A stretch of 64,000 bases of DNA from Candidatus Omnitrophota bacterium (GTDB lineage Bacteria; Omnitrophota; Gorgyraeia; Gygaellales; Profunditerraquicolaceae). The stretch lies in contig JAUSED010000003.1 of the NCBI GenBank assembly GCA_030650425.1, forward strand, positions 199,903-263,902, given 5' to 3'. Under the pieces are notes generated by a model, which saw only the letters and a list, made by a program, of their open reading frames with translations, was not told where the DNA came from and made no database searches. The position numbers were made by a program, and so were the translations under genes. Below, piece after piece: positions 1-18,490 of the stretch. Each line of letters opens with the position of its first letter. Position 1 is the stretch's first letter.

Positions 1-225
1 GACCATCATAATTATAGCGAAGAGGATTTATTCGGTATCGCTACTAAATGCGCGAAAGAAAGTTTAGGGATAATCCTCACCACTGAAAAAGATGCGGTAA
101 GAATATCCGAGGCAAAACTAAAACTCTTTGAGGGGTATCAGCTTTTGGTTTTACGCATAGCCTTAAAAATCACCAAAAATGAAGAGCAACTTTTTAATCG
201 ATTACTTAGCCTGTATTCTTTTTAG
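1..225 (+). CDS. lpxK: tetraacyldisaccharide 4'-kinase LpxK, C-terminal fragment (gene begins upstream of window)
   Basis: Frame 1 reads DHHNYSEEDLFGIATKCAKESLGIILTTEKDAVRISEAK... to TAG at 223-225. The DHHxY...TEKDAVK tail is typical of the LpxK C-terminus. It directly precedes the lipid A acyltransferase gene. Confidence 0.5.
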   Translation, partial: DHHNYSEEDLFGIATKCAKESLGIILTTEKDAVRISEAKLKLFEGYQLLVLRIALKITKNEEQLFNRLLSLYSF

Positions 226-2122: not shown

Positions 2123-4202
2123 ATATCTTACAAATCTTACCAGAGCTTAATGTCGGCGGGGTTGAGACCGGAACTTTGGATCTCTCCAAATATTTAGTGC
2201 GCTTAGGGCATAAGGCAATAGTGGTCTCCGCGGGCGGCTCGCTGGTGAAGGATTTGGAGGCATTGGGAGGCGTTCATTACCAATTGCCCGTGCACAAAAA
2301 ATCTATTTTTTCGATGATTAAAGCGATTCCGCTTTTAATAGAGATTATCAAGAAAGAAAAAATCGATATCGTGCATGCGCGCTCCCGCGTGCCGGCCTGG
2401 ATCGCTTTTTTTGCCTGTCGCGAAACAAAAACCGTCTTGATCACTACCTGTCATGGCTATTATAAAAAACATCCGTTTAGTTATGTGATGGGTTGGGCCA
2501 AGCGGGTAATCGTTTTGAGTAATGTCATCGCCCGGCATATGATCGAAGACTTTAGTGTTCCGCACGAACGGATCAGGCTTATTCCGCGCAGCGTAGATCT
2601 GGAGAAGTTTAAATATTTTGATCCGGATAAAAAACGGGGAAAGGAATTTAATATCGGGATTATCGGCAGAATCACTCCGTTAAAAGGCCACCTCTATTTT
2701 ATTAAGGCCATGGCAAAAGCTGCCCGGGTTATCCCGCAGTTAAAGATTTGGATCGTAGGGGACGCCCCGAGTTCACGCCAAGCCTATAAAGAGCAGATCC
2801 AAGTATTAGTCAGAAGATTGGGGTTGGCTCATTGCACAGAGTTTTTGGGCACGCAAAAAAATATACCGGAGATCTTATCCAATTTAGATCTGGTGGTTCT
2901 GGCGACCACCACGCATGAGGCGTTTGGGAGGGTGATTGTTGAGGCGCAAGCCGCGGGTGTGCCGGTTGTCGCTACTGAAGTGGGTGGAGTGGTGGATATC
3001 ATCGAACACGGCCGCACAGGATTAATCGTTCCTCCGAGCGACCCCCAAAGCATGGCCGAGGCAGTGATCAAGATATTTAAGGATCCGGAGTTAGCGCGTA
3101 ATCTTAGCGAAGCAGCCTATCAAAAAGTCAAAGAGAAATACAATGTCGAGTTAATGGTTGATAACACGCTTAATGTTTATCAGGAGGCGTTGAGTAATTT
3201 TAGGCTTTTAATCATTAAGTTGAGTTCGTTGGGAGATCTCATTTTATCTACGCCGGGCTTGCGGGCGATAAGAGAGAAGTTTCCGCGCCACAAGATAAGT
3301 TTTCTGGTCGGAGAAGAATCTAAAGAACTACTCTTGAGGTCTCCTTATATAGACGAGTTGCTGGTGGTTAACTTAAAAAATAAAGATAAAGGCTTAAAAG
3401 GCCTGTTTAATATTGCCCGGATTCTAAGAAAGAAAAATTTTGATCTGGTCATTGACCTGCAGAATAACCGCGTCAGCCACCTGCTTTCTTTCTTCTCTTT
3501 AAGCCCTGACCGTTACGGCTATGATAACAAAAAATTCGGTTTCTTACTTAACCACAGGATCAAAGATGAAAAGCCCGCGCTGGATCCTGTGACGCATCAA
3601 TTTTGTGTCTTGAAGATGCTGGGGATAGACTTAAGGGATAACCGTCTGGAGTTATGGCCTGGCAAAGAAGACGAAGAATATATCGAAAATTTCCTGAGCA
3701 GGGAATGGTTGAGCGCTGACCAGAAAATCATCGGAATAAATATCAGCGCCAGTAAGAGGTGGTTGACTAAAGCTTGGCCAAAAGACCGTATTGCCAAGCT
3801 GTGCGATGAACTGGGGCTAAAAAACATCCGGGTTTTGATTACCGGTACAGAGAATGATGCGCAGGAAGCCAATGCTTTAACCGCGATGGTCAAGAATACC
3901 AAGATTATCAATGCCTGCGCCAAAACCAACGTGAATCAGTTAGCCGCGCTGATCAAACGTTGTTCTTTGTACATCTCGGCGGATTCCTCGCCTCTGCACA
4001 TAGCCGCGGCTGTGAACATACCGGTGATTGCCTTTTTTGGTCCGACTGACCCGGCAAGACATATGCCTCCGGCAAAACATTACGTAATTATTCGCAGAGA
4101 ATTGGAATGCAGCCCCTGTTATAAGCCTAAATGCAGGCATAAAAAGTGCATGGATATGATTACGGTTGAAGAAGTGTTGGAGGCAGTAGATAAATTACTT
4201 AG

Positions 4203-4206
<4 letters not shown>
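2119..4206 (+). CDS. fused glycosyltransferase: GT4 (N-terminal) + GT9 heptosyltransferase-like (C-terminal)
   Basis: GT4 motif EAFGRVIVEAQAAGVPVVATEVGGVVDIIEHGRTGLIVPP. The C-half shows the GT9 hallmark IIKLSSLGDLILSTPGLRAIREKFP and a CSPC/KPKC Cys-rich tail as in RfaF/RfaC-type enzymes. ATGA overlap with the upstream gene. Confidence 0.7.
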
Positions 4207-5306: not shown

Positions 5307-6109
5307 TTGTCGCCGCGTTACTCGCGGTTATCATATTTTCCTTTCTAAGTTTCGTCCGGCATAAATACGTTCTTCCGGTAATTATGTACCACTCCATTAA
5401 TCCGGATACGCAAAACAACAGCCTTTTGGTGGTTACTCCGGAGAATTTCCGCAGACAGATGCGTTTTTTAAAGGAGCATGATTACCATGTGGTTTCTCTT
5501 GAAGAGGCGGCTGATTTCATAAGAAATAAAAAAAGGCCTCCACCTCGCACAATCGCGATAACTTTTGATGATGGATATAAAGATAACTATACCTATGCCC
5601 TCCCTATACTTAAAGAATACAATTTTACGGCGACGATATTTATTGTAGTGAATGAAGTAGGGGTTCCTCCGGATAAAAAGCTCTCTTGGGATGAAATTCA
5701 GGCTATACAGAAATCAGGGCTGATTACCTTCGGTAGTCACACGATTGATCATCCTAATCTGGCGGAGGTTACTTCCAGCGAAACCATCAAAAACGAAATT
5801 CAGGGCTCAAAAAAGATAATCGAGGAGAAGTTGGGAAAGAAAGTAGGGGCCTTTAGTTATCCCAGCGGAAGATTCAGTAAAGCCGCCCGGCAGGCGGTGA
5901 TTGATGCCGGATATAAACTGGCTGTAGCTACTAATCCGGGGAAGAGAATACCCGATGACGATATATTCGTCATCAAGCGGATCAGAATCTCCAAGAATTG
6001 CGATAATTTGTTTATATTCTGGGTAGAGACAAGCGGCTATTATAATTTTATGAGGGAGAGCAAGGGGCAGAAAAATGGGCGCGGAAGCCAAGAAGATACT
6101 TATCTTTAA
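5285..6109 (+). CDS. polysaccharide deacetylase (CE4/NodB-homology)
   Basis: N-terminal TM helix; ITFDDGYKDNY (the TFDDG motif) and a GSHTIDHPNL His motif. Confidence 0.7.
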
Positions 6110-7094
6110 TGTTAACTGGCTGGGAGATGTTTTATTCTCTACGGCGGTAATCCGGAATATCCGGCGTAATTTTCCGAATAGCTTCTTGGCCTGTATTATA
6201 CCAGCTAGGTGTTATCCCGTCTTAAAGGGAAACCCGCATTTGGATGAAATAATTATTTTTGACGAGAAAGACCGGCATAAGGGTTTATTCGCCAGGTTAG
6301 GCTTTATCCGTAATCTTAAGAATAAGAAGTTCGATATGGTCTTTCTTTTACACAGGTCATTTAGCCGCGCGCTTATCTGCCGTCTCGCCGGGATACCGGA
6401 AAGAATAGGCCATTATACGAAAAAAAGGGCCTTCCTGTTGACCAAAAAGATCATCCCGCCGAAGAGGGATTCGCTTCATCGCATAGATTATTATCTGGAT
6501 ATTATTGAGCAGGCAGGGTTAAGGGTAGAAGACCGCTATCCGGAATTCTTTATCAGTACTGAAGATAAAGCCTTTGTGGAAGACTTTCTGAATAAAAACT
6601 CGGTTAAGCAAGATGATTTTATCGTGGCTATAAACCCGGGAGGAAACTGGCCGCCTAAACGCTGGCCTAAAGATTATTGGGTGGAATTAGCGGATAAGCT
6701 GATTGAAGATTCTGCTGCCAAGTTAATTATTACCGGATCAGTTAATGATTTGTCTTTAGCTGGTTACATTCGCGGAAAAATGCTGCATAAGCCTATAGTT
6801 GCCTGCGGGGTATTTAATCTAAAACAGCTTGGCGCGTTAGCCAAAAAAGCGGACCTGTTTATTACCGCTGATACCGGGCCTTTGCATATCGCTAACAGCG
6901 TGGGAGCGAAAAAAATAATCGCGCTCTTTGGCCCTACCTCGCCGGCAGTCACCGGGCCTTATCCGTCAAAAAACGTCACTATCCTGCAGAAGGACGTGGG
7001 CTGCGAGATTTCCTGCTATGAAGTAAATTGTAAAGATAACCGCTGCATGAAGGCGATCACGCCTGCCGACGTGCTCCAAGAAATAAAAAAATAA
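6075..7094 (+). CDS. glycosyltransferase family 9 (ADP-heptose:LPS heptosyltransferase-like)
   Basis: ILIFNVNWLGDVLFSTAVIRNIRRNFP; NPGGNWPPKRWP; C-terminal TADTGPLHIANSVG...ALFGPT. These are the classic RfaF/RfaC signatures. Confidence 0.75.
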   Translation: MGAEAKKILIFNVNWLGDVLFSTAVIRNIRRNFPNSFLACIIPARCYPVLKGNPHLDEIIIFDEKDRHKGLFARLGFIRNLKNKKFDMVFLLHRSFSRALICRLAGIPERIGHYTKKRAFLLTKKIIPPKRDSLHRIDYYLDIIEQAGLRVEDRYPEFFISTEDKAFVEDFLNKNSVKQDDFIVAINPGGNWPPKRWPKDYWVELADKLIEDSAAKLIITGSVNDLSLAGYIRGKMLHKPIVACGVFNLKQLGALAKKADLFITADTGPLHIANSVGAKKIIALFGPTSPAVTGPYPSKNVTILQKDVGCEISCYEVNCKDNRCMKAITPADVLQEIKK

Positions 7095-7095
7095 G

Positions 7096-9120
7096 ATGGC
7101 GCGTAAAATACTTTTCATTACCCTCAGCAATATCGGCGATTGTCTACTCACTCTGCCGGTATTGGATAGCCTGCGGCAAAAATTCCCTGAAGCGCGAATT
7201 ACGGTCATCGCTGGGCCGCGGACAAAAGGAGTATTCGCGGGCAATCCTGATATCCACAAATTTATCACCTATGATAAACGCGCCAGCCTTAAAGAAAAAA
7301 TAAATTTATTCGTTTCTTTATGGAAAGAGAGCTTCGACGTAGTAGTTGATTTACGCAATAGCTTATTCGGAGTATTTCTTCCGGCCAAGTATAAAACTTC
7401 ACCTTTTTTGAAGATACCCAAGCGCGTCAAACATATGAAGGATAGGCATCTCTATAAGATAAAGGGTATATTCAAAATTAAGGACGCGCCTATTTTACCC
7501 GTAGCATTATATCCCAGCTTAACGGATAAAGAGAAGATTAATCAAATATTAAAAGAGAATAAAATCAATAGCGAAGATAAGTTAATCGTAGTTGCTGCCG
7601 GAGCGCGCAGCCACACGAAGCGCTGGCCCAGAGAGAGATTCATAGAATTGATCGCGAAGTTGATCCAAGAGTTGCCGGTAAAAATTATTTTGGTGGGAGA
7701 TCGGGAAGATAGGGAGGGTAATCAATATATCGCCCAACAGGTAAGGGTCCCACTAGTGGATTTGAGCGCCAGGACTTCACTCAATGAGTTGAGCTATCTT
7801 TTAAAAAAGGCGAGCCTCTTGATTAGTAATGACAGCGCGACTTTACATCTTGCCGGCTACCTGAATATTCCGGTAGTCGCTGTATTCGGAATAACTGATG
7901 ACGCCAAATACGGGCCATGGTCAGAAGGGTCTTTGGTAGCGAAAAAAGAAATATCCTGCCGGCCCTGTCAAGAGGCGCAATGTGAATTCGGGACTTTGGA
8001 ATGTATCACGTTGGTAAAAGTAGAGGATGTCTTTAGGCTAGTGAAAGATATATTGCTTAGTGAAGACAGAAGACAGAAGGCAGAAGACAGAAAAGAGTTT
8101 AAGCGGATACTGGTCGTACGTACCGACAGGATCGGCGATGTGCTTTTATCCACGCCGGTAATCAAGGCCTTAAGAGACAGTTATCCGCACGCCTTTATCG
8201 CGATGATGGTTTCTCCGTATGCTAAAGATATAGTCGAAGGTAATCCTTATTTGGATAAAGTAATCATTTTGGATAAGGACGGAGAACATAAAAATTGGCT
8301 GCGCTCGGTTAAATTAATCCGGAAATTAAAGAAGATGAAATTTGATTTGGCGCTCGTTTTACATCCGACTAACCGCGCGCACTTATTAACTTTTCTTAGC
8401 GCTATACCCAAAAGAGTCGGTTATGACCGTAAACTGGGATTCTTGCTTAGCGATAGGATTAAACATACCAAGCAGTTTGGAGAAAAACACGAGCTGGATT
8501 ATAACTTGGACTTATTAAGGTATTTAGGCGTCGAAATAAAAGATAAAAATTTATTTATACCGGTTAAGCCTGAAGCTGAAAAGTGGGTAGAGGAATTATT
8601 CAGGCAGGAAGGAATAAGTAGTTCAGATAAGCTATTGGCGCTTAACCCTAGCGCCAGCTGCCCGTCGAAAATCTGGCCGGCTGAGCGCTTTGCCCAAACA
8701 GCGGATAAGTTAACCCAAAAATACGGATTTAAGATCATAGTGATTAGCGGGCCAAAAGACATCAGGCTTGCCGATAATTTAGTTAAAAATATGCGCTCGA
8801 GGGCAATTAATCTGGCGGCAAAGACCTCCGTAACGCAATTGGCCAGCTTATTAAAAAGATGCAGCCTATTTATTTCCAATGATTCCGGCCCGGTGCATAT
8901 TGCTTCAGCTGTGGGCACGCCGGTGATTTCCATTTTTGGCAGGAATCAGGCAGGTTTGGGCCCGAAACGTTGGGGGCCGGTGGGAGAGCGGGATAAACTC
9001 CTGCATAAAGCTGCCTGCATAGAATGCCTGGCGCACAATTGCCAAAAACAATTCACTTGCCTTAAGGCAATTAGTGTTGAGGATGTGGTCTTGGCCGCGG
9101 ACGCAATTTTACAAAATTAA
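7096..9120 (+). CDS. tandem double GT9 heptosyltransferase-like protein (two complete GT9 modules in one polypeptide)
   Basis: Module 1 has ILFITLSNIGDCLLTLPVLDSLRQKFP ... SNDSATLHLAGYLNIPVVAVFG. Module 2 has ILVVRTDRIGDVLLSTPVIKALRDSYP ... SNDSGPVHIASAVGTPVISIFG. The linker EDRRQKAEDRKEF is encoded by a GACAGA-type repeat. Confidence 0.7.
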   Translation: MARKILFITLSNIGDCLLTLPVLDSLRQKFPEARITVIAGPRTKGVFAGNPDIHKFITYDKRASLKEKINLFVSLWKESFDVVVDLRNSLFGVFLPAKYKTSPFLKIPKRVKHMKDRHLYKIKGIFKIKDAPILPVALYPSLTDKEKINQILKENKINSEDKLIVVAAGARSHTKRWPRERFIELIAKLIQELPVKIILVGDREDREGNQYIAQQVRVPLVDLSARTSLNELSYLLKKASLLISNDSATLHLAGYLNIPVVAVFGITDDAKYGPWSEGSLVAKKEISCRPCQEAQCEFGTLECITLVKVEDVFRLVKDILLSEDRRQKAEDRKEFKRILVVRTDRIGDVLLSTPVIKALRDSYPHAFIAMMVSPYAKDIVEGNPYLDKVIILDKDGEHKNWLRSVKLIRKLKKMKFDLALVLHPTNRAHLLTFLSAIPKRVGYDRKLGFLLSDRIKHTKQFGEKHELDYNLDLLRYLGVEIKDKNLFIPVKPEAEKWVEELFRQEGISSSDKLLALNPSASCPSKIWPAERFAQTADKLTQKYGFKIIVISGPKDIRLADNLVKNMRSRAINLAAKTSVTQLASLLKRCSLFISNDSGPVHIASAVGTPVISIFGRNQAGLGPKRWGPVGERDKLLHKAACIECLAHNCQKQFTCLKAISVEDVVLAADAILQN

Positions 9121-9202
9121 ATTGATATCGAAATTAATCTGGTGATTGTGGTAAATATATAGTTGATTAAGCGCCGGATTGTGCTAAAATTATAATTTCA
9201 CT

Positions 9203-10132
9203 ATGATAGATATAAAGAAAGTTAAGACATATTCGGTTAAGGCGCGCTTGAGTAAGGTGAATTCCGCGGATTTTGCCCGCATTCCGGCTAAAAATAAGGG
9301 ATTTAGGGCTTTTTATGATTCTTTGCCTAATATCTTAAAGGCAAAGGATTTACGTTGCGTAGTGAATGATATAGCCGCTGCCCGTAAAAACGGTAAGGCA
9401 GTGATATTTATGGCCGGTGCCCACGTGATCAAATGCGGGCTTAATCTTGTCTTAATCGAGCTGATTAAAAATAAAGTGATTACCTGCATCTGTTTAAACG
9501 GCGCGGGGATTATCCACGATTTTGAAATTGCTTTTCAAGGAAAGACTTCCGAAGATGTCAGCCAAAACCTTAAAACCGGTAAATTCGGAATGGGCAGGGA
9601 GACCGCGGAGTTCATTAATAACGCGGTAGCCGAAGGCGTAGAAAGCGGATTAGGTTTAGGGCTCTCCGTCGCTAAAAAAATAGCCGATTCTAAATTGCCT
9701 TATAAAAATCTGAGTTTATTGTACAATGCCCATAAATACAAAGTTCCGGTCTGCGTTTTCGTCGGAATCGGCACAGATATCATTCATCAGCATCCTTCGT
9801 TTAACGCCGGGTTTACTGGCGAAGGGTCTCAGCGTGATTTTTATACGCTCACGGAAAATATCCGCGCCTTAAAGGGTGGAGGGGTAGTTTTAAATTTTGG
9901 CTCGGCAGTGATGCTTCCGGAAGTATTTTTGAAGGCTTTAAATTTAGCCCGTAATTTAGGGAGTAAAGTGAAAGATTTCACCACGGCTACTTTTGATATG
10001 ATTTATCAATACCGCGCGGCCCAGAATGTCGTGGCGCGCCCGGTGATCTCAGGCGGCCAAGGTTACTATATCATCGGCCACCATGAAATCATGCTCCCGC
10101 TTTTGGCGCAGGCAGTTATAGAAAAATTATGA
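9203..10132 (+). CDS. deoxyhypusine synthase-like (DHS family) protein, function unknown
   Basis: KAVIFMAGAHVIKCGLNLVLIELIKNKVITCICLNGAGIIHDFE parallels the DHS core [45 protein letters not shown]. No other family fits by eye. Confidence 0.4.
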   Translation: MIDIKKVKTYSVKARLSKVNSADFARIPAKNKGFRAFYDSLPNILKAKDLRCVVNDIAAARKNGKAVIFMAGAHVIKCGLNLVLIELIKNKVITCICLNGAGIIHDFEIAFQGKTSEDVSQNLKTGKFGMGRETAEFINNAVAEGVESGLGLGLSVAKKIADSKLPYKNLSLLYNAHKYKVPVCVFVGIGTDIIHQHPSFNAGFTGEGSQRDFYTLTENIRALKGGGVVLNFGSAVMLPEVFLKALNLARNLGSKVKDFTTATFDMIYQYRAAQNVVARPVISGGQGYYIIGHHEIMLPLLAQAVIEKL

Positions 10133-11142
10133 AAAATTTAAAAGAAATAGTGCGCAGGCTGAACAAGGCAAGAATTCTGGTCATCGGCGATCTTATCCTT
10201 GATGAATATATCTGGGGAAAAGTAGAGAGGATTTCGCCTGAGGCGCCAGTTCCGGTGGTTTGGGCGAATAAACGCACACATGTTCCGGGAGGAGCGGCCA
10301 ACGTAGCCAATAATATCCGTTCTTTTGGCGCCGAGGTCTATTTAGCCGGCGTTACCGGAGGCGATGCCAACGCCAAAATCCTGCTCGCGGAATTGAAGAA
10401 AAATAAAATAAATACCGAAGGCATCTTCGTTGAGCCACAGAGGTATACTACGGTGAAGACTCGAATTATCGCCGGGCATCAACAAGTGGTGCGCGTAGAT
10501 TGGGAGCATACCGAGCCGTTGATTAAGACAACAACGCAGAGGATCTTTAATTTCATTAAGGATAATATCGATAATTTTGACGCCATCATCATCGAAGATT
10601 ACGGAAAAGGGGTAATCAACGCCCAAGTTTTAGCAGGTTTGATTTTACTGGCTCAGGCGCATAAGAAAATCGTCACCGTCGACCCGAAAGAAGACCATTT
10701 CCAATATTACCGTCAGGTGACCTCGATTACTCCTAACCGCAAAGAATTGGAGAACGCGGTGAGAAATCTAAAGATTAAGGACAAAAAGAATAGATTAAAG
10801 CTGGAGAGCGATAAATTATTTACCGATAAGGATATTGACGCCGCGGGAAAACAGATATTGGAATATTTAGGGCTTGAGTCACTCTTAGTTACTTTAGGGG
10901 AACAAGGGATGAAGCTGTTTGAAAAGAATGGGGCGATCACGCATATCCCCACGGTGGCCCAAGAGGTCTTTGATGTATCCGGAGCAGGGGACACGGTAAT
11001 TTCGACTTTTACTCTCGGTTTATGCGGCGGGGCAAGCAGGCTAGAAGCTGCCCATATCGCTAATTACGCCGCCGGTATTGTCGTAGGCAAGATTGGCACA
11101 GCCACGACTACCCGGGAAGAACTTTTAAAAAGGTTAGGTTAA
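10129..11142 (+). CDS. hldE: D-glycero-beta-D-manno-heptose-7-phosphate kinase (HldE domain I / RfaE1, PfkB family)
   Basis: ILVIGDLILDEYIWGKVERISPEAPVPV is diagnostic of RfaE domain I. The C-terminal DVSGAGDTVISTF matches the PfkB motif. No adenylyltransferase domain is fused. Confidence 0.75.
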   Translation: MKNLKEIVRRLNKARILVIGDLILDEYIWGKVERISPEAPVPVVWANKRTHVPGGAANVANNIRSFGAEVYLAGVTGGDANAKILLAELKKNKINTEGIFVEPQRYTTVKTRIIAGHQQVVRVDWEHTEPLIKTTTQRIFNFIKDNIDNFDAIIIEDYGKGVINAQVLAGLILLAQAHKKIVTVDPKEDHFQYYRQVTSITPNRKELENAVRNLKIKDKKNRLKLESDKLFTDKDIDAAGKQILEYLGLESLLVTLGEQGMKLFEKNGAITHIPTVAQEVFDVSGAGDTVISTFTLGLCGGASRLEAAHIANYAAGIVVGKIGTATTTREELLKRLG

Positions 11143-11143
11143 A

Positions 11144-11884
11144 ATGGATGTAATCGGAGTCATACCAGCGCGGTATTCTTCCACCAGATTTGAAGGAAAG
11201 GTTTTGGCTAAGATACTTGGTAAGCCGATGATCCAGCACGTCTGGGAAAGGGCGAAACTTGCCCGGATGCTCGACGATGTGATTATTGCCTGTGACCATG
11301 AATTAGTGGCTTCTACTGCCCGCGAGTTTGGAGCTAAGGTAGTCTTTACCGCTAAGGCGCATGCCTGCGGTACAGACAGGATCAGCGAGGTAGTCAATCC
11401 GCTAGAGGTAAAAATAGTTATAAATATTCAGGGAGATGAGCCATTAATCCATCCCAGTACGATCGATAGCGTAGCGAGCGCGCTTTTAGATAATAAAGAT
11501 ATCAATATGGCTACGTTGATGAAAAGAATAGAAGACCCCGCTTTAATCAATGATCCGAATGTGGTCAAGGTAGTGGTGGATAGGAATAATTTCGCGCTCT
11601 ATTTTTCGCGCGCGGCCATCCCGCATTTAGCGTTGGGCGCTGAAATTGCCAAACCGGTGTATTTTAAGCATATTGGGCTTTATGGATATACCAAAGACTT
11701 CCTTTTTACTTATAAAAACCTGCCGGTCTCTAATTTAGAAAAAACCGAGCGGCTGGAACAATTACGGGTGCTTGAAGGAGGATTCCGGATTAAGGTTATT
11801 GAAACTAAATTCGATACCGTGGGAGTAGATACGCCGGAGGATTTGGAGAAAGTTAAAGTTTATTTAGAGAAGGATAAAATATAA
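11144..11884 (+). CDS. kdsB: 3-deoxy-manno-octulosonate cytidylyltransferase
   Basis: GVIPARYSSTRFEGKVLAKILGKPMIQHVWERA compares with E. coli KdsB IIPARYASTRLPGKPL...GKPMIVHV. Confidence 0.85.
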   Translation: MDVIGVIPARYSSTRFEGKVLAKILGKPMIQHVWERAKLARMLDDVIIACDHELVASTAREFGAKVVFTAKAHACGTDRISEVVNPLEVKIVINIQGDEPLIHPSTIDSVASALLDNKDINMATLMKRIEDPALINDPNVVKVVVDRNNFALYFSRAAIPHLALGAEIAKPVYFKHIGLYGYTKDFLFTYKNLPVSNLEKTERLEQLRVLEGGFRIKVIETKFDTVGVDTPEDLEKVKVYLEKDKI

Positions 11885-12696
11885 TGCATGAAATCATGGT
11901 GAGAAATATCCGCATTGGTAACCATAACCCTTTAGTGTTGATTGCCGGGCCGTGCGTGATTGAATCACAGACACTCGTTTTGGATACCGCTAAAAGAATA
12001 AAAGATATTACGACTAAACTCGGAATTCCCTATATCTTTAAATCCAGCTTTGATAAAGCCAACCGCATGTCCGGGGATTCTTTTCGCGGCCCGGGGATCA
12101 AAAAAGGCTTGGAAGTCTTAAATAAAATTAAGCAACTAGTGAAGGTTCCTATATTAAGCGATGTGCATTGCGTAAAAGATATGGCCGAAGCGGCTAAGGT
12201 CTTGGATATTATTCAAATCCCGGCGTTTTTATGCCGTCAGACAGATATTATGCTGGCGGCAGCCCGTACCGGAAAGGTCGTGAATATCAAAAAAGGGCAG
12301 TTCTTGGCGCCTTGGGATATTCTGCCGATTATCAAGAAGGTGGAGTCTACCGGAAATAAAAAAATTCTTATTACCGAGCGGGGGGTAAGTTTTGGTTATA
12401 ATAATCTGGTTTCGGATTTCCGGGCCTTACAGATTATGCGTGGTTTCGGCTACCCGGTGATTTATGATGCTACCCATAGCATTCAGGTCCCCGGAGGAAA
12501 AGGAACTTCATCCGGCGGAGAGCGCGAATTCGTCGAGGGTTTATCCCGGGGGGCAGTTGCCTTTGGCTGCGACGGTTTATTTTTAGAGGTGCATCCGGAT
12601 CCGGATAAAGCTCCTTGCGACGGCCCAAATATGATTAATTTAAAAGACTTAGAGAAACTATTAAAACAGGTTAAGAAGATTGAGGCAGCCTTATGA
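11884..12696 (+). CDS. kdsA: 2-dehydro-3-deoxyphosphooctonate aldolase (KDO-8-P synthase)
   Basis: LVLIAGPCVIES N-terminus, ~270 aa, located in the kds operon. Confidence 0.85.
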   Translation: MHEIMVRNIRIGNHNPLVLIAGPCVIESQTLVLDTAKRIKDITTKLGIPYIFKSSFDKANRMSGDSFRGPGIKKGLEVLNKIKQLVKVPILSDVHCVKDMAEAAKVLDIIQIPAFLCRQTDIMLAAARTGKVVNIKKGQFLAPWDILPIIKKVESTGNKKILITERGVSFGYNNLVSDFRALQIMRGFGYPVIYDATHSIQVPGGKGTSSGGEREFVEGLSRGAVAFGCDGLFLEVHPDPDKAPCDGPNMINLKDLEKLLKQVKKIEAAL

Positions 12697-13661
12697 AAAT
12701 AAACATCGTCAAAAGGGCCAAGGAAGTTTTGGATATCGAGGCGGCTGCGATCAAGAACTTAAAAGCGCGCATCGATCATGATTTTAGGGATGCCGTTAAT
12801 TTAATCCATAGAACCAAAGGCAGGGCGATCGTCAGCGGGATGGGCAAAACCGGAATCATCGCCCAGAAGCTTTCCGCTACCTTGGCTTCCACCGGGACCC
12901 CGAGTTTATTTTTACATACCGCTGAAGCAATTCACGGAGATTTAGGAAAAGTCACTTCCGATGATGTGGTAATTATCCTTTCGAATAGCGGCTCAACCGA
13001 AGAGATGAAGCAGCTCCTCCCTTTATTAAAAAAGATAGGTTGTAAAGTGATTGCCCTTACCGGTAACATTAAATCTATTCTGGCAAAATATAGCGATGTG
13101 GTTTTGGATGTTTCGGTAAAAAAAGAGGCTTGCCCTTTAGGCCTGGCTCCGACAGCTTCCACCACCGCGGCTCTGGCTATGTCAGATGCTTTGGCTGTTT
13201 GCTTGTTAGAGCTTAAAGGTTTTAAAGAAAAAGATTTTGCCTTTTTTCATCCCGGAGGGGCATTGGGGAAGCGCTTACTTTTGAAGGTGGAGGATATTAT
13301 GCGCCGTGGAGAGGCTAATCCGATTGTCAAAGAAGAAGAAAAGGTTTCTAAGGTACTGATTAAAATTACTCAGGCGCGCGCGGGTTCAGCCACGGTGGTG
13401 GACGCGAGAGGTAAGTTAAAAGGGATATTTACCGACGGCGACCTTAGGCGGCATCTTGAGACAGATAAAAATTTACCGACGCGTAAAATAAAAGAAGTAA
13501 TGACTAAAAATCCAACCGTTATTCATCAGGAAATGCTCGCGGCCGAAGCCATTCGTATATTGCGGGAAAAAAGGGTCGATGAACTTCCGGTGGTGGATAG
13601 AGATAAGCGTCCGGTGGGTTTATTGGATGTGCAGGATCTTTTGAAAGCAGGATTATTATAG
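12693..13661 (+). CDS. kdsD: arabinose-5-phosphate isomerase (SIS + tandem CBS)
   Basis: SIS domain GRAIVSGMGKTGIIAQKLSATLASTGTPSLFLHTAEAIHGDLG with a C-terminal CBS pair. Confidence 0.85.
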   Translation: MKINIVKRAKEVLDIEAAAIKNLKARIDHDFRDAVNLIHRTKGRAIVSGMGKTGIIAQKLSATLASTGTPSLFLHTAEAIHGDLGKVTSDDVVIILSNSGSTEEMKQLLPLLKKIGCKVIALTGNIKSILAKYSDVVLDVSVKKEACPLGLAPTASTTAALAMSDALAVCLLELKGFKEKDFAFFHPGGALGKRLLLKVEDIMRRGEANPIVKEEEKVSKVLIKITQARAGSATVVDARGKLKGIFTDGDLRRHLETDKNLPTRKIKEVMTKNPTVIHQEMLAAEAIRILREKRVDELPVVDRDKRPVGLLDVQDLLKAGLL

Positions 13662-13664
13662 AAA

Positions 13665-14207
13665 ATGCCCGCAGATACGTTTAAACAGGAATTGGATGAA
13701 CGCGCCAGAAAAATAAAGATTTTATTGCTGGATGTGGACGGCGTGCTCACTGACGGCAGGATTATTTATGACTCTAAGGGGAGGGATTCAAAATTTTTTG
13801 ACGTGCATGACGGGTTGGGGGTTTATATTCTCAATAAAGCCGGGATTAAAACCATTATTGTTACCGCTAAAAGCTCTAAGGCAATTAAGCCGCGGGCGCG
13901 CGATATGCGGGTCACCGAGGTATTCGCGGATGTTTCTCCTAAAAGCGGGGTATTGGATAAAATCTTGAAGAAATATCAGGTGACTAGAGAAGAGGTTTGT
14001 TTTGTGGGGGATGATCTGGTGGATTTAGGCTTGATGAAAATAGTAGGTTTTCCCGTCGCTGTATTTAACGCCTGCCCGGAAATCAAGCAGGCCGCCAGTT
14101 ACATCACTATTAGATATGGCGGCAGGGGCGCGGTGCGCGAGATCGCCGAGTTAATCCTTAAAGCGCAGGGTAAGTGGGGAGAGATGATCAGATTTTATGA
14201 GGCCTAA
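13665..14207 (+). CDS. kdsC: KDO-8-phosphate phosphatase (HAD)
   Basis: IKILLLDVDGVLTDGRIIYDSKG; VGDDLVDL. Confidence 0.8.
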   Translation: MPADTFKQELDERARKIKILLLDVDGVLTDGRIIYDSKGRDSKFFDVHDGLGVYILNKAGIKTIIVTAKSSKAIKPRARDMRVTEVFADVSPKSGVLDKILKKYQVTREEVCFVGDDLVDLGLMKIVGFPVAVFNACPEIKQAASYITIRYGGRGAVREIAELILKAQGKWGEMIRFYEA

Positions 14208-15105
14208 AGAAGGTTTTTTAGTTTTTATATTGATTTCTTTATTTTTTATTCCCGCTTTTGGCGAAACCACTACCCCTGATCAACCCTCTGACCAGCAGAT
14301 CGGCGATTTTTCTTTGTCGGGTTACGGGGATAAAGGGAAGAAGAGTTGGAATATTGCCGGTAAAACCGCGGATATATTCACGGATGAGGTTAAATTAAAG
14401 GACGTGGACGGTAATCTCTACGGAAAAGATGAAGATGTGAATCTTACCGCCAAGACCGGAAATTTCAATAAAAAAGACGGGAAGGTTCATTTAGAAAAAG
14501 ATGTGGTGATTACCACCTCTAAGGGCGCGAAACTTACTACCGACTCCATGGATTGGGATAGGAATAAGCAATTAGTTACTACCGAAGATAAAGTAAACAT
14601 CGCCAAAGACAATATGAATATTACCGGTACGGGGGCCCACGGAGAACCAAACCTTAAAAAACTGGCGTTAAATAAAGACGTTACGGTCGACATCAACCCG
14701 ACGCAGAGTTCCGCGGCCAAATCCGATGAATTGGCAGTAAAAGATAAGGTTACGATTACCTGTGATAGTTCACTCGAAATTGATTACGAGAAAAATATCG
14801 CTACCTTTAATAAGAATGTTTTAGTGGATAGGGGTGATTCCCAGATCTATAGCGATATAATGCATCTTTATTTTAGCGCGGGCAAGGATACCAAGCAGGC
14901 GGATAAAACTCCCGGGCTGATGGGTAATAATAAAATCGATAAGATTGTAGCGCAGGGTAATGTCAAGATTGTCCGCGGTGAAAATACTTCATATAGCGAA
15001 GAAGCGGTTTATACCGCTAGCGACAAGAAAATAGTCTTAAGCGGAAGGCCAAAATTAGTTTTTTATTCTACCGAGGACCTGAAGAATGCATCTTTTGGAA
15101 ATTAA
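14197..15105 (+). CDS. LPS transport periplasmic protein, LptC/LptA (OstA-like) family
   Basis: N-terminal signal/anchor followed by repeated OstA-like beta-jellyroll segments (NVKIVRGENTSYSEEAVYTASDKKIVLSGRPKL). Occupies the lptC-lptA position between kdsC and lptB. Confidence 0.55.
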   Translation: MRPKEGFLVFILISLFFIPAFGETTTPDQPSDQQIGDFSLSGYGDKGKKSWNIAGKTADIFTDEVKLKDVDGNLYGKDEDVNLTAKTGNFNKKDGKVHLEKDVVITTSKGAKLTTDSMDWDRNKQLVTTEDKVNIAKDNMNITGTGAHGEPNLKKLALNKDVTVDINPTQSSAAKSDELAVKDKVTITCDSSLEIDYEKNIATFNKNVLVDRGDSQIYSDIMHLYFSAGKDTKQADKTPGLMGNNKIDKIVAQGNVKIVRGENTSYSEEAVYTASDKKIVLSGRPKLVFYSTEDLKNASFGN

Positions 15106-15808
15106 AGGTTTAAGCAAGACTTACGGCGGGAGAGAAGTAGTTAAGGGTGTTGACCTCACGGTGAAACGCTCAGAGATCGTCGGTTTACTTGGGCCTAATG
15201 GCGCGGGAAAAACCACCACTTTCTATATGGTGGTCGGGATTGTCCCGCCTAACCGCGGAAAAATCGTCTTTGATAATTATGATATAACTAATTTATCGAT
15301 TCACGAGCGGGCGCATTTTGGCATCGGGTATTTATCTCAGGAGGCTTCTATATTTCGTAAGCTTACGGTTGAAGAAAATATCATGGCAATTTTGGAAACT
15401 CTTTCCATAGGTAAGGCCGAAAGAAGGCGTCGGCTGGAGAGCCTGCTTAATGAATTAAATATAGCGCATTTAGCTAAATCCAAGGCTTTTACTTTATCCG
15501 GCGGAGAGCGCAGGCGCTTGGAGATTACCCGGGCCCTGGTTACTAATCCTTCTTTTATACTTTTGGATGAGCCGTTTTCCGGGATTGACCCGATTGTGGT
15601 TAACGAGGCGCAGGAGATTATCAAAGAATTAAGGGATAAGGGCTTAGGGATTTTACTTACCGACCACAACGTAAGAGAGACGCTTTCCATAACCGATCGA
15701 GCTTATTTAATTGCCGACGGCAAGATTCTTATTTCAGGAACAGCTGATGAACTTATTAATAACGCGCAGGCCCGTTCGATTTATCTGGGCGAAAAATTCA
15801 GGATGTGA
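15086..15808 (+). CDS. lptB: LPS export ABC transporter ATP-binding protein
   Basis: LEIKGLSKTYGGREVVKGVDLTVKRSEIVGLLGPNGAGKTTTFYMVVG; LSGGERRRLEI; ILLDEPFSGIDP. Confidence 0.85.
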   Translation: MHLLEIKGLSKTYGGREVVKGVDLTVKRSEIVGLLGPNGAGKTTTFYMVVGIVPPNRGKIVFDNYDITNLSIHERAHFGIGYLSQEASIFRKLTVEENIMAILETLSIGKAERRRRLESLLNELNIAHLAKSKAFTLSGGERRRLEITRALVTNPSFILLDEPFSGIDPIVVNEAQEIIKELRDKGLGILLTDHNVRETLSITDRAYLIADGKILISGTADELINNAQARSIYLGEKFRM

Positions 15809-16701
15809 GAAAGGGAGAAATGAAAACAGAAGTAAAGAAACTCGATAGTAATATAAAGGAACTTAATGTTGAAGTAACCGGAGATGTGGTAAAAAATAAA
15901 TTCGAAGATGTCTTTAAACGTATAGGAATGGAAGCTAAGGTTCCGGGTTTTCGGCCGGGGCATGCCCCGCGGGATATCCTGGAGAAAAATTATTCTGCTA
16001 ACGCGCATGAACAGGTATTAAAGGAATTGGTCCCGGATATTTACAATGAGGCAATCAATAAAGAAGGGCTGGATGTGATTGAATTGCCCGAGATATCCGA
16101 GGTAAAGCTGGATCGGGAGTCCCTTTCTTTTAAGGCTAAGGTGGAAGTCAGCCCGGAGATTGACGTTGGGGATTATAAGGGGATTAAAATTGATTACAAG
16201 GGCATAAACGTTGTTCCGGATGAGGTCAAGCGGGCTATCGATTCCCTGAAAGAATCGCGCAAGATCGATAATCTCGACGATAACCTCGCCAAGTCTTTAG
16301 GCTACCCGAATTTGAATGAGCTGGAGAAGGTTTTAGATAAACAAATCTTTATCCAGAAAGAAAATGCCGAGCGCCAGAAGGTAGAAGGCGAAATTGTCGA
16401 GCATCTGCTTAAAAGCGTGGATTTTAAATCGCCGCAGGGTTTGGTTAAGCGGCAATTGGAAGATATGCTGCGACAGGCTAAGGTGGATTTAGCTTTGAAG
16501 GGAATAGCGCGCGATAAAATCGAAGAGCAGGATAAAAAAATGCGCGAGGAGCTGGAGCCGGAAGCGGCTAAGCAGGTAAAGATTTATCTGATTTTAGCGG
16601 CGATAGCCAAAAAAGAAAATATAGCGCAAGACGATCACTTGCCGCGCAGGGTGATGGAGTTTTTGTTGAGAGAGGCTGATTGGAAGGTTGAAACAACATA
16701 A
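15805..16701 (+). CDS. tig: trigger factor (N-terminal ribosome-binding + C-terminal domains; PPIase domain absent)
   Basis: PGFRPGHAP signature loop in the N-domain and C-domain homology. Only 298 aa. Immediately upstream of clpP as in tig-clpP. Confidence 0.7.
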
Positions 16702-16715
16702 TCAAGGAGGTTAGA

Positions 16716-17327
16716 ATGGAAATTAAGAATCAGACTTTGGTTCCTATGGTCATCGAGCAGACCTCAAGAGGTTATGAGCGGGCCTATGATATTTATTCAC
16801 GCCTGCTTAAGGACCGCATAGTTTTTATCGGCACTCCCATAGACGATTATATCGCTAATCTGATTATCGCTCAGATATTATTTCTGCAGATGGAAGACGT
16901 CGGTAAAGACATTAACGTTTATATTAATTCTCCGGGAGGTTCGGTTACCGCGGGACTGGCGATTTACGACACGATGCAGTTTGTAAAGTGCGATATTTCT
17001 ACTTATTGCGTGGGACAGGCCTCCAGTATGGGCGCCCTGCTTTTATGCGCGGGGACAAAAGGAAAACGCCACTCGCTTCCGAACTCAAGGATTATGATCC
17101 ATCAGCCTTGGGGCGGAGTGCAGGGGCCGGCGGAGGATATCTCCCGCCACGCGCAGGAAATTTTAAAAATGCGCGACAGGCTCAATGAAATAATCGCGCA
17201 GCATACGGGCCAATCGCTGGAAAAAGTAAAAAAAGATACGGACAGGGATTATTTTATGTCAAGCGAAGAAGCTAAAGTTTATGGATTAGTTGATGAAGTA
17301 ATTATGCCGCAGGCAAAAAAGAAATAG
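16716..17327 (+). CDS. clpP: ATP-dependent Clp protease proteolytic subunit
   Basis: [31 protein letters not shown]; ...[11 protein letters not shown] (catalytic Ser); MIHQP. Confidence 0.9.
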
Positions 17328-17339
17328 GAGGTTGTATCT

Positions 17340-18476: not shown

Positions 18477-18490
18477 AATAGGAGTTAAAG

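What the first reader, a model, noticed from the sequence alone, without database searches (positions are those of the whole stretch)
9203..10132. Deoxyhypusine-synthase-like gene embedded in the LPS core/heptose/Kdo cluster
The ORF between the double heptosyltransferase and the heptose-7-P kinase carries the DHS-family core (…IFMAGAHVIKCGLNLVLIELIKNKVITCICLNGAGIIHDFE…). DHS-fold enzymes are NAD-dependent aminobutyl transferases, as in (homo)spermidine and hypusine chemistry. One sitting in an otherwise canonical LPS operon, preceded by its own promoter-like TTGATT/TATAAT region, suggests an undescribed core-sugar modification or a moonlighting fold. A polyamine-type decoration of heptose or Kdo is one possibility.
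Basis: inference. Interest (0 to 1): 0.6.

Follow-up and report, generated by a model that had tools for sequence, protein, structure and literature searches.

The report
Uncharacterised DHS-fold gene tied to heptose synthesis
This is a real, well-conserved gene whose protein folds like deoxyhypusine synthase but belongs to a separate, functionally unstudied family (GSU2086 family) that across many bacterial phyla sits beside, or is fused to, the enzymes that make the activated heptose sugar of lipopolysaccharide, so it may be an unrecognised extra step in a pathway thought to be fully known.

Summary
The ORF at 9203-10132 (+, 309 aa) is real. It has the same composition as its neighbours, is under purifying selection (dN/dS 0.06-0.14), and its stop overlaps the start of the heptose-7-P kinase gene. 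It is not a deoxyhypusine synthase. DHS profiles match only about 70 N-terminal residues, below cutoff. No conserved lysine sits where the DHS catalytic lysine would be. The protein matches NCBIfam NF052581 "GSU2086 family protein" end to end (406 bits, cutoff 250). An AlphaFold model confirms a DHS-like fold at superfamily level, equally close to the ArgZ/AgrE C-domain and LOR/SDH proteins. The family is large, with at least 598 species genomes in about 15 phyla. In 37 of 80 loci a heptose-pathway gene is directly adjacent (gmhA or the kinase). Individual members are fused to GmhA-, kinase-, phosphatase- or adenylyltransferase-type domains. No HldD epimerase lies within 10 kb in any locus. 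In Geobacter the gene sits among gmhB, hldE and gmhA and shares their Tn-seq defect. Nothing supports polyamine chemistry. My best guess, unproven, is an extra enzyme of nucleotide-heptose synthesis, possibly doing HldD's epimerase job. The function remains unknown and no publication on it was found.

The parts
9203..10132 (+). Target gene: GSU2086-family protein (309 aa), DHS-like fold, cytoplasmic (no hydrophobic N-terminus)
   Evidence: ORF. NF052581 405.7 bits (cutoff 250) over residues 2-304. AlphaFold model pLDDT 81.6, pTM 0.81. Foldseek hits to DHS, ArgZ/AgrE and LOR/SDH at E about 1e-8. GC 0.438 against 0.437 for the window, and dN/dS 0.06-0.14.
9404..9526 (+). Codons 68-108: the beta1-helix-beta2 core that resembles the dinucleotide-binding core of DHS (IFMAGAHVIKCG...NGAGIIHDFE). 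Contains family-invariant G72 H74 K77 G79 N99 G100 H105 D106 E108.
   Evidence: Pfam DS match to residues 46-116. hhalign aligns residues 67-106 with human DHS 99-138. Conservation across 185 sequences.
9121..9202 (+). 82-bp AT-rich intergenic gap (GC 0.29) with a promoter-like TTGATT-16-TAAAAT match. Not statistically supported and not conserved in relatives.
   Evidence: Gap lengths in relatives.
10129..11142 (+). Heptose-7-phosphate kinase (stand-alone RfaE domain I / HldA type). Its start overlaps the target's stop (ATGA).
   Evidence: TIGR02198 381 bits against cutoff 345. The same adjacency occurs in 19 related loci.
7096..9120 (+). Tandem GT9+GT9 heptosyltransferase fusion immediately upstream
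   Evidence: PF01075 matched twice, TIGR02195 280 bits. Conserved upstream of the family gene in Omnitrophota relatives.
6075..7094 (+). GT9 heptosyltransferase
   Evidence: PF01075 126.5 bits
2119..4206 (+). GT4+GT9 fusion glycosyltransferase (LPS core)
11144..14207 (+). Kdo genes kdsB, kdsA, kdsD and kdsC, immediately downstream in the same gene array
   Evidence: Pfam CTP_transf_3, DAHP_synth_1, SIS+CBS, Hydrolase_3

Best explanation
The gene encodes a soluble enzyme of the GSU2086 family (NCBIfam NF052581). This family is a distinct branch of the DHS-like dinucleotide-binding fold superfamily and works with the nucleotide-activated heptose pathway (sedoheptulose-7-P -> GmhA -> kinase -> GmhB -> adenylyltransferase -> ADP-heptose) that feeds the GT9 heptosyltransferases encoded beside it. 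Shown here: family membership, the fold, the conserved polar crevice at the C-terminal ends of all six beta-strands, and the cross-phylum linkage to heptose-precursor genes by adjacency and by gene fusion. Inferred: the crevice retains the glycine-rich beta1/beta2 loops that bind the ADP part of NAD in DHS, so it probably binds NAD(P)+ or the ADP moiety of ADP-heptose. The protein would then carry out a redox-neutral stereochemical conversion of a heptose intermediate. The most economical candidate is the C6 epimerisation (D,D- to L,D-heptose) that the unrelated SDR enzyme HldD performs in the canonical pathway. It is not an aminobutyl or polyamine transferase. I put about 0.85 on the general claim (a heptose-precursor pathway component) and about 0.3-0.35 on the specific HldD-like role.
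For: Family: NF052581 at 405.7 bits (cutoff 250), full length. Fold: Foldseek E 1.6e-8, TM 0.55-0.58 to DHS 7cmc, with similar scores to ArgZ/AgrE (6juy, 6lrg) and LOR/SDH (3c2q). Linkage by adjacency: of 80 loci from about 15 phyla, 37 have a heptose-pathway gene directly adjacent on the same strand. gmhA is upstream in 21 and the kinase downstream in 19, and 47 have a heptose gene or GT9 within 4 genes. L017 and L079 carry GmhA, GmhB, kinase and adenylyltransferase around the gene. Linkage by fusion: with CTP_transf_like (P0133, P0140, P0172, P0184, P0263, P0268, P0185), PfkB (P0192), PfkB+CTP_transf (P0237), SIS_2 (P0235, P0219) and HAD (P0222, P0266). Geobacter: gmhB GSU2084, hldE GSU2085, GSU2086, gmhA GSU2087, with matching Tn-seq defects of -3.1, -3.2 and -3.7 (PMC5585712). 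All four canonical D,D-heptose steps are therefore already covered by other genes, which leaves a fifth role. No HldD orthologue lies within 10 kb in any of the 80 loci: the best SDRs score 74-86 bits to TIGR02197 (cutoff 274.6) while the E. coli control scores 458. In H. pylori hldD sits inside the gmhA-hldE-hldD-gmhB cluster (PMC10269868). About 45 near-invariant residues, mostly polar (H74 K77 H105 D106 E108 T115 S116 E117 D192 H195 N231 S234 E240 K244 D265 Y270 R271 R279 H294 E295), lie at the C-terminal ends of the strands, which is typical of an enzyme active site. Purifying selection: dN/dS 0.06-0.14. From my own knowledge, characterised members of this fold superfamily (DHS, the AgrE C-domain) use NAD+ as a transient hydride carrier, which is the same logic as HldD.
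Against: No biochemical evidence exists and no publication on the family was found. Whether genomes carrying the family lack HldD could not be tested here, because only +/-10 kb around each gene was available. Human DHS E137, which I recall from the literature as important for NAD binding, aligns with an invariant His (H105) in the family, so NAD binding is not assured. The many conserved His/Asp/Glu residues could instead form a metal site. The Geobacter Tn-seq phenotype could be a polar effect on downstream hldE and gmhB. The tightest adjacency is to gmhA and the kinase (early steps), not to the adenylyltransferase. A Chloroflexota plasmid has a HAD-family-kinase-SIS module with no visible nucleotidyltransferase, beside sugar-uptake genes, which fits a substrate at the sugar-phosphate level better than ADP-heptose. 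Thirty-three of the 80 loci show no recognisable heptose or GT9 gene within 4 genes.
Confidence: 0.4

Rival explanations
1. The protein acts earlier in the pathway, on a heptose phosphate rather than on ADP-heptose. It might work between GmhA and the kinase as an epimerase, an anomer-selecting enzyme or a proofreading enzyme for heptose-7-P or heptose-1,7-bisphosphate. The chemistry could be metal-dependent, using the conserved His/Asp/Glu cluster, rather than NAD-dependent.
For: The commonest direct neighbours are gmhA (21 loci) and the kinase (19 loci). GmhA-family fusions exist (P0235, P0219). The Chloroflexota plasmid module HAD-family-kinase-SIS has no nucleotidyltransferase. Invariant H74, H105, D106, H195, D265, H294 and E295, plus R271, R279 and K77, would suit a metal or phosphate site. 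DHS E137 aligns with a His.
Against: The most frequent fusion partner among the best 150 representatives is the nucleotidyltransferase domain, in 8 proteins. No known requirement exists for such a step in the reconstituted pathway (GmhA, HldE and GmhB suffice in vitro in E. coli and H. pylori). No metal-binding homologue was found by the fold search.
Confidence: 0.2
2. The protein makes a different, modified heptose, or a related higher sugar nucleotide. It would be a tailoring enzyme of a heptose-type module used for various glycans, not only LPS core.
For: In Solidesulfovibrio pDCAR1 the family gene sits with divergent, sub-cutoff paralogues of HldE and GmhA, three radical-SAM enzymes and nonulosonic-acid genes, not with GT9 core genes. 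Generic NDP-sugar SDRs follow the gene in L021 and L093.
Against: Most linked loci are plain LPS-core contexts (GT9, Kdo genes, O-antigen ligase) with near-canonical GmhA and kinase. The high conservation of the active-site signature across all contexts suggests one common reaction.
Confidence: 0.12
3. The protein is a non-catalytic partner that binds ADP-heptose or NAD. It would act as a regulator, sensor or scaffold for the heptose enzymes.
For: It is fused to every enzyme of the pathway rather than to one, as might be expected of a scaffold. The catalytic lysine of DHS is lost.
Against: About 45 near-invariant residues, mostly polar or charged, are concentrated at the strand ends across about 15 phyla, and selection is strongly purifying. 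This is the pattern of an active enzyme.
Confidence: 0.08
4. One reading: a true DHS-type NAD-dependent aminobutyl (polyamine) transferase that decorates core heptose or Kdo.
For: DHS-like fold. A weak DS profile match over the beta1-beta2 core. All characterised relatives act on amines (my own knowledge).
Against: It falls below all DHS model cutoffs. There is no conserved Lys between the last two strands, where the DHS catalytic lysine sits; the only conserved lysines are K18, K77 and K244. That loop instead carries invariant Y270, R271 and R279, which suit anionic rather than cationic substrates (inference). No polyamine-pathway genes occur among the recurrent neighbours. The fusion partners are cytoplasmic precursor enzymes, not core-modifying enzymes.
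Confidence: 0.03

Closest known systems
GSU2086 of Geobacter sulfurreducens / NCBIfam NF052581 'GSU2086 family protein'
   Same: Full-length profile match (405.7 bits, cutoff 250). The same linkage to heptose genes: GSU2086 lies among gmhB, hldE and gmhA.
   Different: In the window the gene is coupled to a stand-alone kinase and flanked by GT9 and Kdo genes, with no gmhA, gmhB or adenylyltransferase anywhere in the 64 kb. His186, conserved in 91% of the family, is Phe here. The family itself has no assigned function.
Deoxyhypusine synthase / homospermidine synthase (PF01916, TIGR00321; e.g. PDB 7cmc, 1dhs)
   Same: Overall alpha/beta fold (Foldseek E about 1e-8, TM about 0.55). The beta1-helix-beta2 core with glycine-rich loops (FAM 67-106 aligns with human DHS 99-138).
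   Different: 12-17% identity. Below all curated cutoffs. No alignable sequence outside the core. No counterpart of the catalytic lysine. DHS E137 aligns with a His. No eIF5A or polyamine context.
C-terminal LOR/SDH-like domain of ArgZ/AgrE (PF21570; PDB 6juy, 6lrg) and the archaeal LOR/SDH protein 3c2q
   Same: As close in fold as DHS (E 2-4e-8). Several family members exceed the PF21570 gathering score (P0121 32.6 bits, P0172 29.4 bits).
   Different: The window protein scores only 17.9 bits (cutoff 27), over about 60 residues. Those domains act on amino acids (ornithine) and are fused to a guanidino-modifying domain. There is no such context here.
[quoted passage not shown]
   Same: Genomic role: a fifth gene embedded in heptose operons or next to GT9 genes (H. 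pylori gmhA-hldE-hldD-gmhB; E. coli rfaD-waaF-waaC). That is the position this family occupies in Geobacter and in the window. A possible shared logic of a tightly bound nicotinamide cofactor used transiently (inference).
   Different: No homology: the fold is different (SDR Rossmann versus DHS-like). Epimerase activity of the GSU2086 family is untested.

Membership tests
Deoxyhypusine synthase family (PF01916 / TIGR00321) | Scores above the curated profile cutoffs over most of the model | tested here: not met
   PF01916 26.4 bits against 27, covering profile positions 12-83 of 288 only. TIGR00321 20.4 bits against 304.25. A PDB profile search gives E=0.91 to 7cmc.
Deoxyhypusine synthase family (PF01916 / TIGR00321) | DHS-type alpha/beta fold | tested here: met
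   Foldseek against the PDB: DHS from P. horikoshii, human, T. brucei, Brugia and Trichomonas at E 1e-8 to 1e-6, probability 1.00, TM 0.50-0.61. The model has pLDDT 81.6.
Deoxyhypusine synthase family (PF01916 / TIGR00321) | Catalytic lysine (human K329, between the last two beta-strands) that forms the enzyme-imine intermediate | tested here: not met
   Across 185 family sequences the only conserved lysines are K18 (85%), K77 (98%) and K244 (98%). Between strands 260-265 and 286-291 no position has more than 35% Lys, while Y270, R271 and R279 are invariant there. The positional equivalence rests on fold topology, because the sequences cannot be aligned in this region.
Deoxyhypusine synthase family (PF01916 / TIGR00321) | NAD-site acidic residues (human E137 and D138 after beta2) | tested here: inconclusive
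   hhalign pairs H105 with E137 and D106 with D138. D106 is 98% conserved, and H105 is 98% His. Actual NAD binding cannot be judged from sequence.
Deoxyhypusine synthase family (PF01916 / TIGR00321) | Polyamine or eIF5A substrate context | tested here: not met
   No polyamine-pathway genes occur among the recurrent neighbours in 80 loci. The neighbours are heptose and LPS genes.
GSU2086 family (NCBIfam NF052581) | Full-length match above the curated cutoff | tested here: met
   405.7 bits against 250; residues 2-304 match model positions 2-301 of 301; E 1.4e-121.
GSU2086 family (NCBIfam NF052581) | Family signature residues | tested here: met
   H74 K77 H105 D106 E108 D192 H195 H197 E240 K244 D265 Y270 R271 R279 H293 H294 E295 are all present. 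The only departure is His186 to Phe, shared with the closest Omnitrophota relatives.
GSU2086 family (NCBIfam NF052581) | Association with heptose-pathway genes (an empirical trait of the family, established here) | tested here: met
   The stop overlaps the start of the heptose-7-P kinase in the window. 37 of 80 loci have an adjacent heptose gene. Fusions.
Canonical ADP-heptose pathway enzymes (GmhA, HldE/HldA/HldC, GmhB, HldD) | Homology to one of the known enzymes | tested here: not met
   The target has no Pfam or NCBIfam match to SIS, PfkB, HAD, CTP_transf_like or SDR epimerase models. Those enzymes are encoded separately beside it in Geobacter, L017 and L079.
Canonical ADP-heptose pathway enzymes (GmhA, HldE/HldA/HldC, GmhB, HldD) | Catalyses a step of heptose activation, for example 6-epimerisation | not testable with these tools
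   This needs enzymology or genetics. The genome-wide HldD presence/absence profile could not be computed here.
ArgZ/AgrE C-terminal LOR/SDH-like domain (PF21570) | Profile match above the gathering score | tested here: not met
   The window protein scores 17.9 bits against 27. A few family members exceed 27, so the relation is at superfamily level.

The most novel reading that the evidence does not exclude
The GSU2086 family is a previously unrecognised, widespread fifth enzyme of nucleotide-heptose biosynthesis. It would be a DHS-fold, non-SDR analogue of HldD, or the maker of a different heptose stereoisomer, that supplies the heptose donor for LPS cores in a dozen or more phyla (Omnitrophota, Desulfobacterota, Nitrospirota, Acidobacteriota, Bacteroidota and others). 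That would mean the 'complete' textbook ADP-heptose pathway has a common alternative ending.
Probability: 0.3. Interest if true: 0.8.

Novelty: new variant of a known kind. Interest (0 to 1): 0.6.

Why it matters
The ADP-heptose pathway is regarded as fully worked out. It supplies the inner core of LPS, and ADP-heptose is a bacterial signal sensed by host innate immunity. A conserved, enzyme-like protein of unknown function, welded by adjacency and fusion to every enzyme of that pathway in many poorly studied phyla, suggests one of three things: a missing step, an alternative to HldD, or a new heptose variant. It would also extend the DHS-like fold, so far known only for amine chemistry, to sugar-nucleotide or sugar-phosphate metabolism. 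Practically, current annotation as 'deoxyhypusine synthase family protein' is misleading and could seed false inferences about polyamine or hypusine metabolism in these bacteria.

Tried and rejected
(1) Strict DHS membership. Rejected on profile cutoffs, the lack of a catalytic Lys, and the failure of global alignment.

(2) An own promoter. The hexamer match is at chance level and the gap is not conserved.

(3) Recent horizontal insertion. Rejected, because GC and GC3 match the neighbours.

(4) The family as a replacement for GmhA, GmhB, the kinase or the adenylyltransferase. Rejected, because all four are encoded beside it in Geobacter, L017 and L079 and are fused to it in other members.

(5) SDRs next to the gene in L016, L021 and L093 as hidden HldD. 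Rejected, at 74-86 bits against a cutoff of 274.6.

(6) Finding hldD/rfaD/gmhD in Geobacter gene tables. No such gene is named, but the tables are truncated, so this is inconclusive.

(7) Literature searches for GSU2086, DHS-like plus heptose or LPS, and AGMHE plus Geobacter. No functional study was found. The Geobacter LPS structure paper (PMID 15582618) is not held.

(9) Sequence search of the PDB with the single protein gave no hit.

(10) Phage records gave no hit. Of 12 IMG/VR 'viral' contigs with relatives, only one has heptose genes.

(11) Pfam on the remaining fusion partners (P0130 N-terminus, L021 C-terminal extension) and on the Chloroflexota and Solidesulfovibrio hypothetical proteins gave nothing.
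Full report
OBSERVATION. The window carries an ATG-initiated ORF at exactly 9203..10132 (+), 309 aa. Upstream lies a tandem GT9+GT9 heptosyltransferase (7096-9120). [quoted passage not shown] The whole stretch from 179 to about 15800 is one + strand array of LPS genes:
- an LpxL-like acyltransferase fusion, GT4+GT9, GT4, a polysaccharide deacetylase, GT9 and GT9x2;
- the target gene and the kinase;
- KdsB, KdsA, KdsD, KdsC, LptC/A and LptB.

The gene has the same base composition as its neighbours (GC 0.438 against 0.437 for the window). Against Omnitrophota orthologues it shows dN/dS of 0.06-0.14 with saturated synonymous sites. An identical protein is on record from a Candidatus Omnitrophota MAG. 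It is a real, native, functional gene. The claimed 'own promoter' is not supported. TATAAT lies 22 nt from TTGATT. The scan tool finds TTGATT-16-TAAAAT (9 of 12 matches), but the number of such sites equals the shuffle expectation (3 against 3.0 +/- 1.7). The gap before the gene varies from 2 to about 500 nt in relatives.

IS IT A DHS? Only at fold level.
- Pfam PF01916 matches residues 46-116 (profile positions 12-83 of 288) at 26.4 bits, under the gathering score of 27. PF21570 (ArgZ-like C-terminal Rossmann domain) matches the same stretch at 17.9 bits.
- TIGR00321 (DHS) scores 20 bits against a cutoff of 304.
- Neither the protein nor a 32-sequence profile finds DHS in PDB sequences.
hhalign of a 62-sequence family profile against it aligns only 40 columns (family 67-106 with DHS 99-138; E=0.12). 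A forced global alignment is meaningless.
- In contrast, NCBIfam NF052581 'GSU2086 family protein' matches end to end at 405.7 bits (cutoff 250; E 1.4e-121).
- An AlphaFold2 model (pLDDT 81.6, pTM 0.81) hits DHS structures with Foldseek (7cmc E 1.6e-8, TM 0.55-0.58; 1dhs E 1e-7). It hits the ArgZ/AgrE C-terminal domain (6juy, 6lrg) and the LOR/SDH protein 3c2q equally well. All are at 12-18% identity.

The protein is nevertheless a separate family within the DHS-like superfamily.

RESIDUE TESTS. I aligned 185 diverse family members. The near-invariant residues are G72 H74 K77 G79 N99 G100 H105 D106 E108 G113 T115 S116 E117 E133 T134 D192 H195 D212 N231 G233 S234 A235 P239 E240 K244 N251 D265 Y270 R271 N275 R279 G292 H294 E295 P299. 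In the model they fall at the C-terminal ends of the six parallel strands (67-71, 95-99, 183-186, 228-232, 260-265, 286-291). That is the usual active-site crevice of such folds. The only conserved lysines are K18, K77 and K244. The loop between the last two strands, where DHS carries its catalytic lysine (human K329; my knowledge of DHS), has no conserved Lys and instead has invariant Y270, R271 and R279. In the alignable core, DHS E137 pairs with invariant H105, and D138 pairs with D106. The glycine-rich loops after beta1 and beta2 are kept. This suggests, but does not prove, that an ADP-containing ligand (NAD(P)+ or ADP-heptose) still binds. His186, conserved in 91% of the family, is Phe in the window protein and its closest Omnitrophota relatives, so it is not essential.

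WHAT IT TRAVELS WITH. The family is large. It has 2456 clusters (50% identity) at E<=1e-3 and 471 at E<=1e-30. I annotated the 80 best loci, carrying about 15 phylum-level labels, with E. coli and window reference proteins.
- A heptose-pathway gene is directly adjacent on the same strand in 37 loci. gmhA is immediately upstream in 21 (Nitrospirota, Desulfobacterota, Binatia, Acidobacteriota). The kinase is immediately downstream in 19 (Omnitrophota, Verrucomicrobiota and others).
- 47 loci have a heptose gene or GT9 within four genes.
- L017 reads family | adenylyltransferase+GmhB | GmhA | kinase | GT9 x3. L079 reads GmhB | family | HldE | GmhA | GT9.
- Other recurrent neighbours are DUF3108 (Bacteroidota), O-antigen ligase (Poribacteria) and unrelated housekeeping genes. 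No polyamine genes recur.

Rosetta-stone fusions among the best 150 representatives join the family domain to each type of pathway enzyme:
- a CTP_transf_like nucleotidyltransferase (P0133, P0140, P0172, P0184, P0263, P0268; P0185 also has an ARMT1-like phosphatase);
- a PfkB kinase (P0192), or kinase plus nucleotidyltransferase (P0237, a complete HldE);
- SIS_2/GmhA-like domains (P0235, P0219);
- HAD phosphatases (P0222 of GmhB/PNK3P type, P0266).

In G. sulfurreducens the namesake GSU2086 lies among gmhB (GSU2084), hldE (GSU2085) and gmhA (GSU2087). It shares their electrode-growth Tn-seq defect (-3.2 against -3.1 and -3.7) (PMC5585712). Polarity on the downstream genes could explain that.

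Two plasmids extend the picture. Solidesulfovibrio carbinolicus pDCAR1 has [adenylyltransferase+kinase]-family-SIS followed by radical-SAM genes, inside a nonulosonic-acid glycan cluster. A Chloroflexota plasmid has HAD-family-kinase-SIS beside a sugar ABC transporter and oxidoreductases. In both, the family protein passes NF052581 (384-386 bits), while its partners are divergent, sub-cutoff paralogues of the heptose enzymes.

WHAT IS MISSING. No HldD (ADP-heptose 6-epimerase) orthologue lies within 10 kb of the family gene in any of the 80 loci. The only SDR hits score 74-86 bits to TIGR02197 (cutoff 274.6), while the E. coli control scores 458. The 64-kb window itself has no GmhA, GmhB, adenylyltransferase or HldD, only the kinase. 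In canonical clusters hldD sits with these genes: H. pylori gmhA-hldE-hldD-gmhB (PMC10269868) and E. coli rfaD-waaF-waaC.

MECHANISM, WITH LEVELS OF SUPPORT.
- Shown: family membership, fold, an enzyme-like conserved crevice, and cross-phylum linkage by adjacency and fusion to the cytoplasmic enzymes that build nucleotide-activated heptose.
- By elimination (inference): the four D,D-heptose steps are encoded separately next to the gene and are even fused to it. The family therefore supplies something else.
- Most economical proposal (inference, about 0.3-0.35): it binds NAD(P)+ or the ADP part of ADP-heptose in the retained dinucleotide crevice. It then performs a redox-neutral stereochemical step, most simply the C6 epimerisation that HldD performs elsewhere.
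- Rivals: a step at sugar-phosphate level next to GmhA and the kinase, possibly metal-dependent (about 0.2); tailoring toward a modified heptose (about 0.12); a non-catalytic regulator (about 0.08); true aminobutyl or polyamine transfer (about 0.03).

COMPARISON AND NOVELTY. The gene is an ordinary member of a catalogued but functionally blank family. Public annotation as 'deoxyhypusine synthase family protein' overstates the relation to DHS. I found no paper on its function. It works 'like' nothing yet demonstrated. It resembles DHS, AgrE-C and LOR/SDH in fold, and it resembles HldD only in genomic role. I rate it a new variant of a known kind: a DHS-fold protein recruited to the heptose pathway. 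It is of moderate-to-high interest because it may add a step, or an alternative ending, to a pathway considered complete.

Noticed in passing
window 9756-9758 (codon 186 of the target): A His conserved in 169 of 185 family members (at the end of beta3) is Phe in the window protein and its closest Omnitrophota relatives (L002-L004, L006-L008; Tyr in L005). More distant Omnitrophota (L009-L013) keep His. The rest of the signature is intact.
   Followed up: yes
window 179-2122: A single 647-aa ORF fuses a lipid A late acyltransferase domain (PF03279) to a Mito_fiss_Elm1 domain (PF06258). This is an unusual fusion at the head of the LPS gene array.
   Followed up: no
window 2119-4206 and 7096-9120: Two fused glycosyltransferases: GT4+GT9 (695 aa) and a tandem GT9+GT9 (674 aa). 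The tandem GT9 is conserved directly upstream of the family gene in Omnitrophota relatives (L004, L006-L008).
   Followed up: partly
window 1-64000: The only heptose-precursor gene in the 64 kb is the stand-alone kinase. No GmhA, GmhB, heptose-1-P adenylyltransferase or HldD was detectable, although four GT9 domains are encoded here. These genes must lie elsewhere in the genome or be replaced.
   Followed up: partly
L085 (Solidesulfovibrio carbinolicus plasmid pDCAR1, NZ_CP026539.1) 13327-20932: A reversed-order adenylyltransferase+PfkB kinase fusion, the family gene, a divergent SIS protein and three radical-SAM enzymes (one B12-binding) sit next to pseB, pseC, pseF, a NeuB-like gene and a split transketolase. 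This looks like a pathway for an unusual higher sugar, not LPS core.
   Followed up: partly
L086 (Chloroflexota plasmid CP069395.1) 14044-17474: A HAD-family-kinase-SIS module lies beside a sugar ABC transporter, Gfo/Idh/MocA oxidoreductases, a GntR regulator, a ROK protein and deoC. That is a catabolic or salvage-looking context in a phylum not known for classical LPS. No nucleotidyltransferase was seen.
   Followed up: partly
proteins P0121, P0196, P0243: P0121 (679 aa) is a tandem duplication of the family domain, which hints at a dimeric functional unit. P0196 and P0243 begin with a C-terminal half-copy of the domain before a full copy. P0243 also ends in GH38 (alpha-mannosidase) N-terminal domains.
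   Followed up: partly
protein P0185 (826 aa): A triple fusion of an ARMT1-like (DUF89) damage-control phosphatase, a CTP_transf_like nucleotidyltransferase and the family domain. The DUF89 phosphatase may stand in for GmhB.
   Followed up: no
L021 4841-6989: In this Omnitrophota locus the family ORF is 450 aa, with a C-terminal extension of about 125 aa that has no Pfam match. It is followed by a generic NDP-sugar SDR (74 bits to the HldD model, far below cutoff). L093 likewise has an SDR two genes downstream.
   Followed up: partly
L087-L098 (IMG/VR contigs): Twelve contigs classed as viral encode relatives (35-50% identity). Only L093 shows adenylyltransferase | family | kinase. The others have no recognisable heptose genes nearby. 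Whether these are true phage auxiliary genes or host DNA was not examined.
   Followed up: partly
L028, L034, L040, L042, L046, L048, L067 (Bacteroidota/Ignavibacteria loci): In these loci the family gene is preceded by a DUF3108 protein and a GT9 gene, and often followed by an Rce1-like CAAX protease or CdsA. This conserved arrangement differs from the gmhA- or kinase-linked ones.
   Followed up: partly
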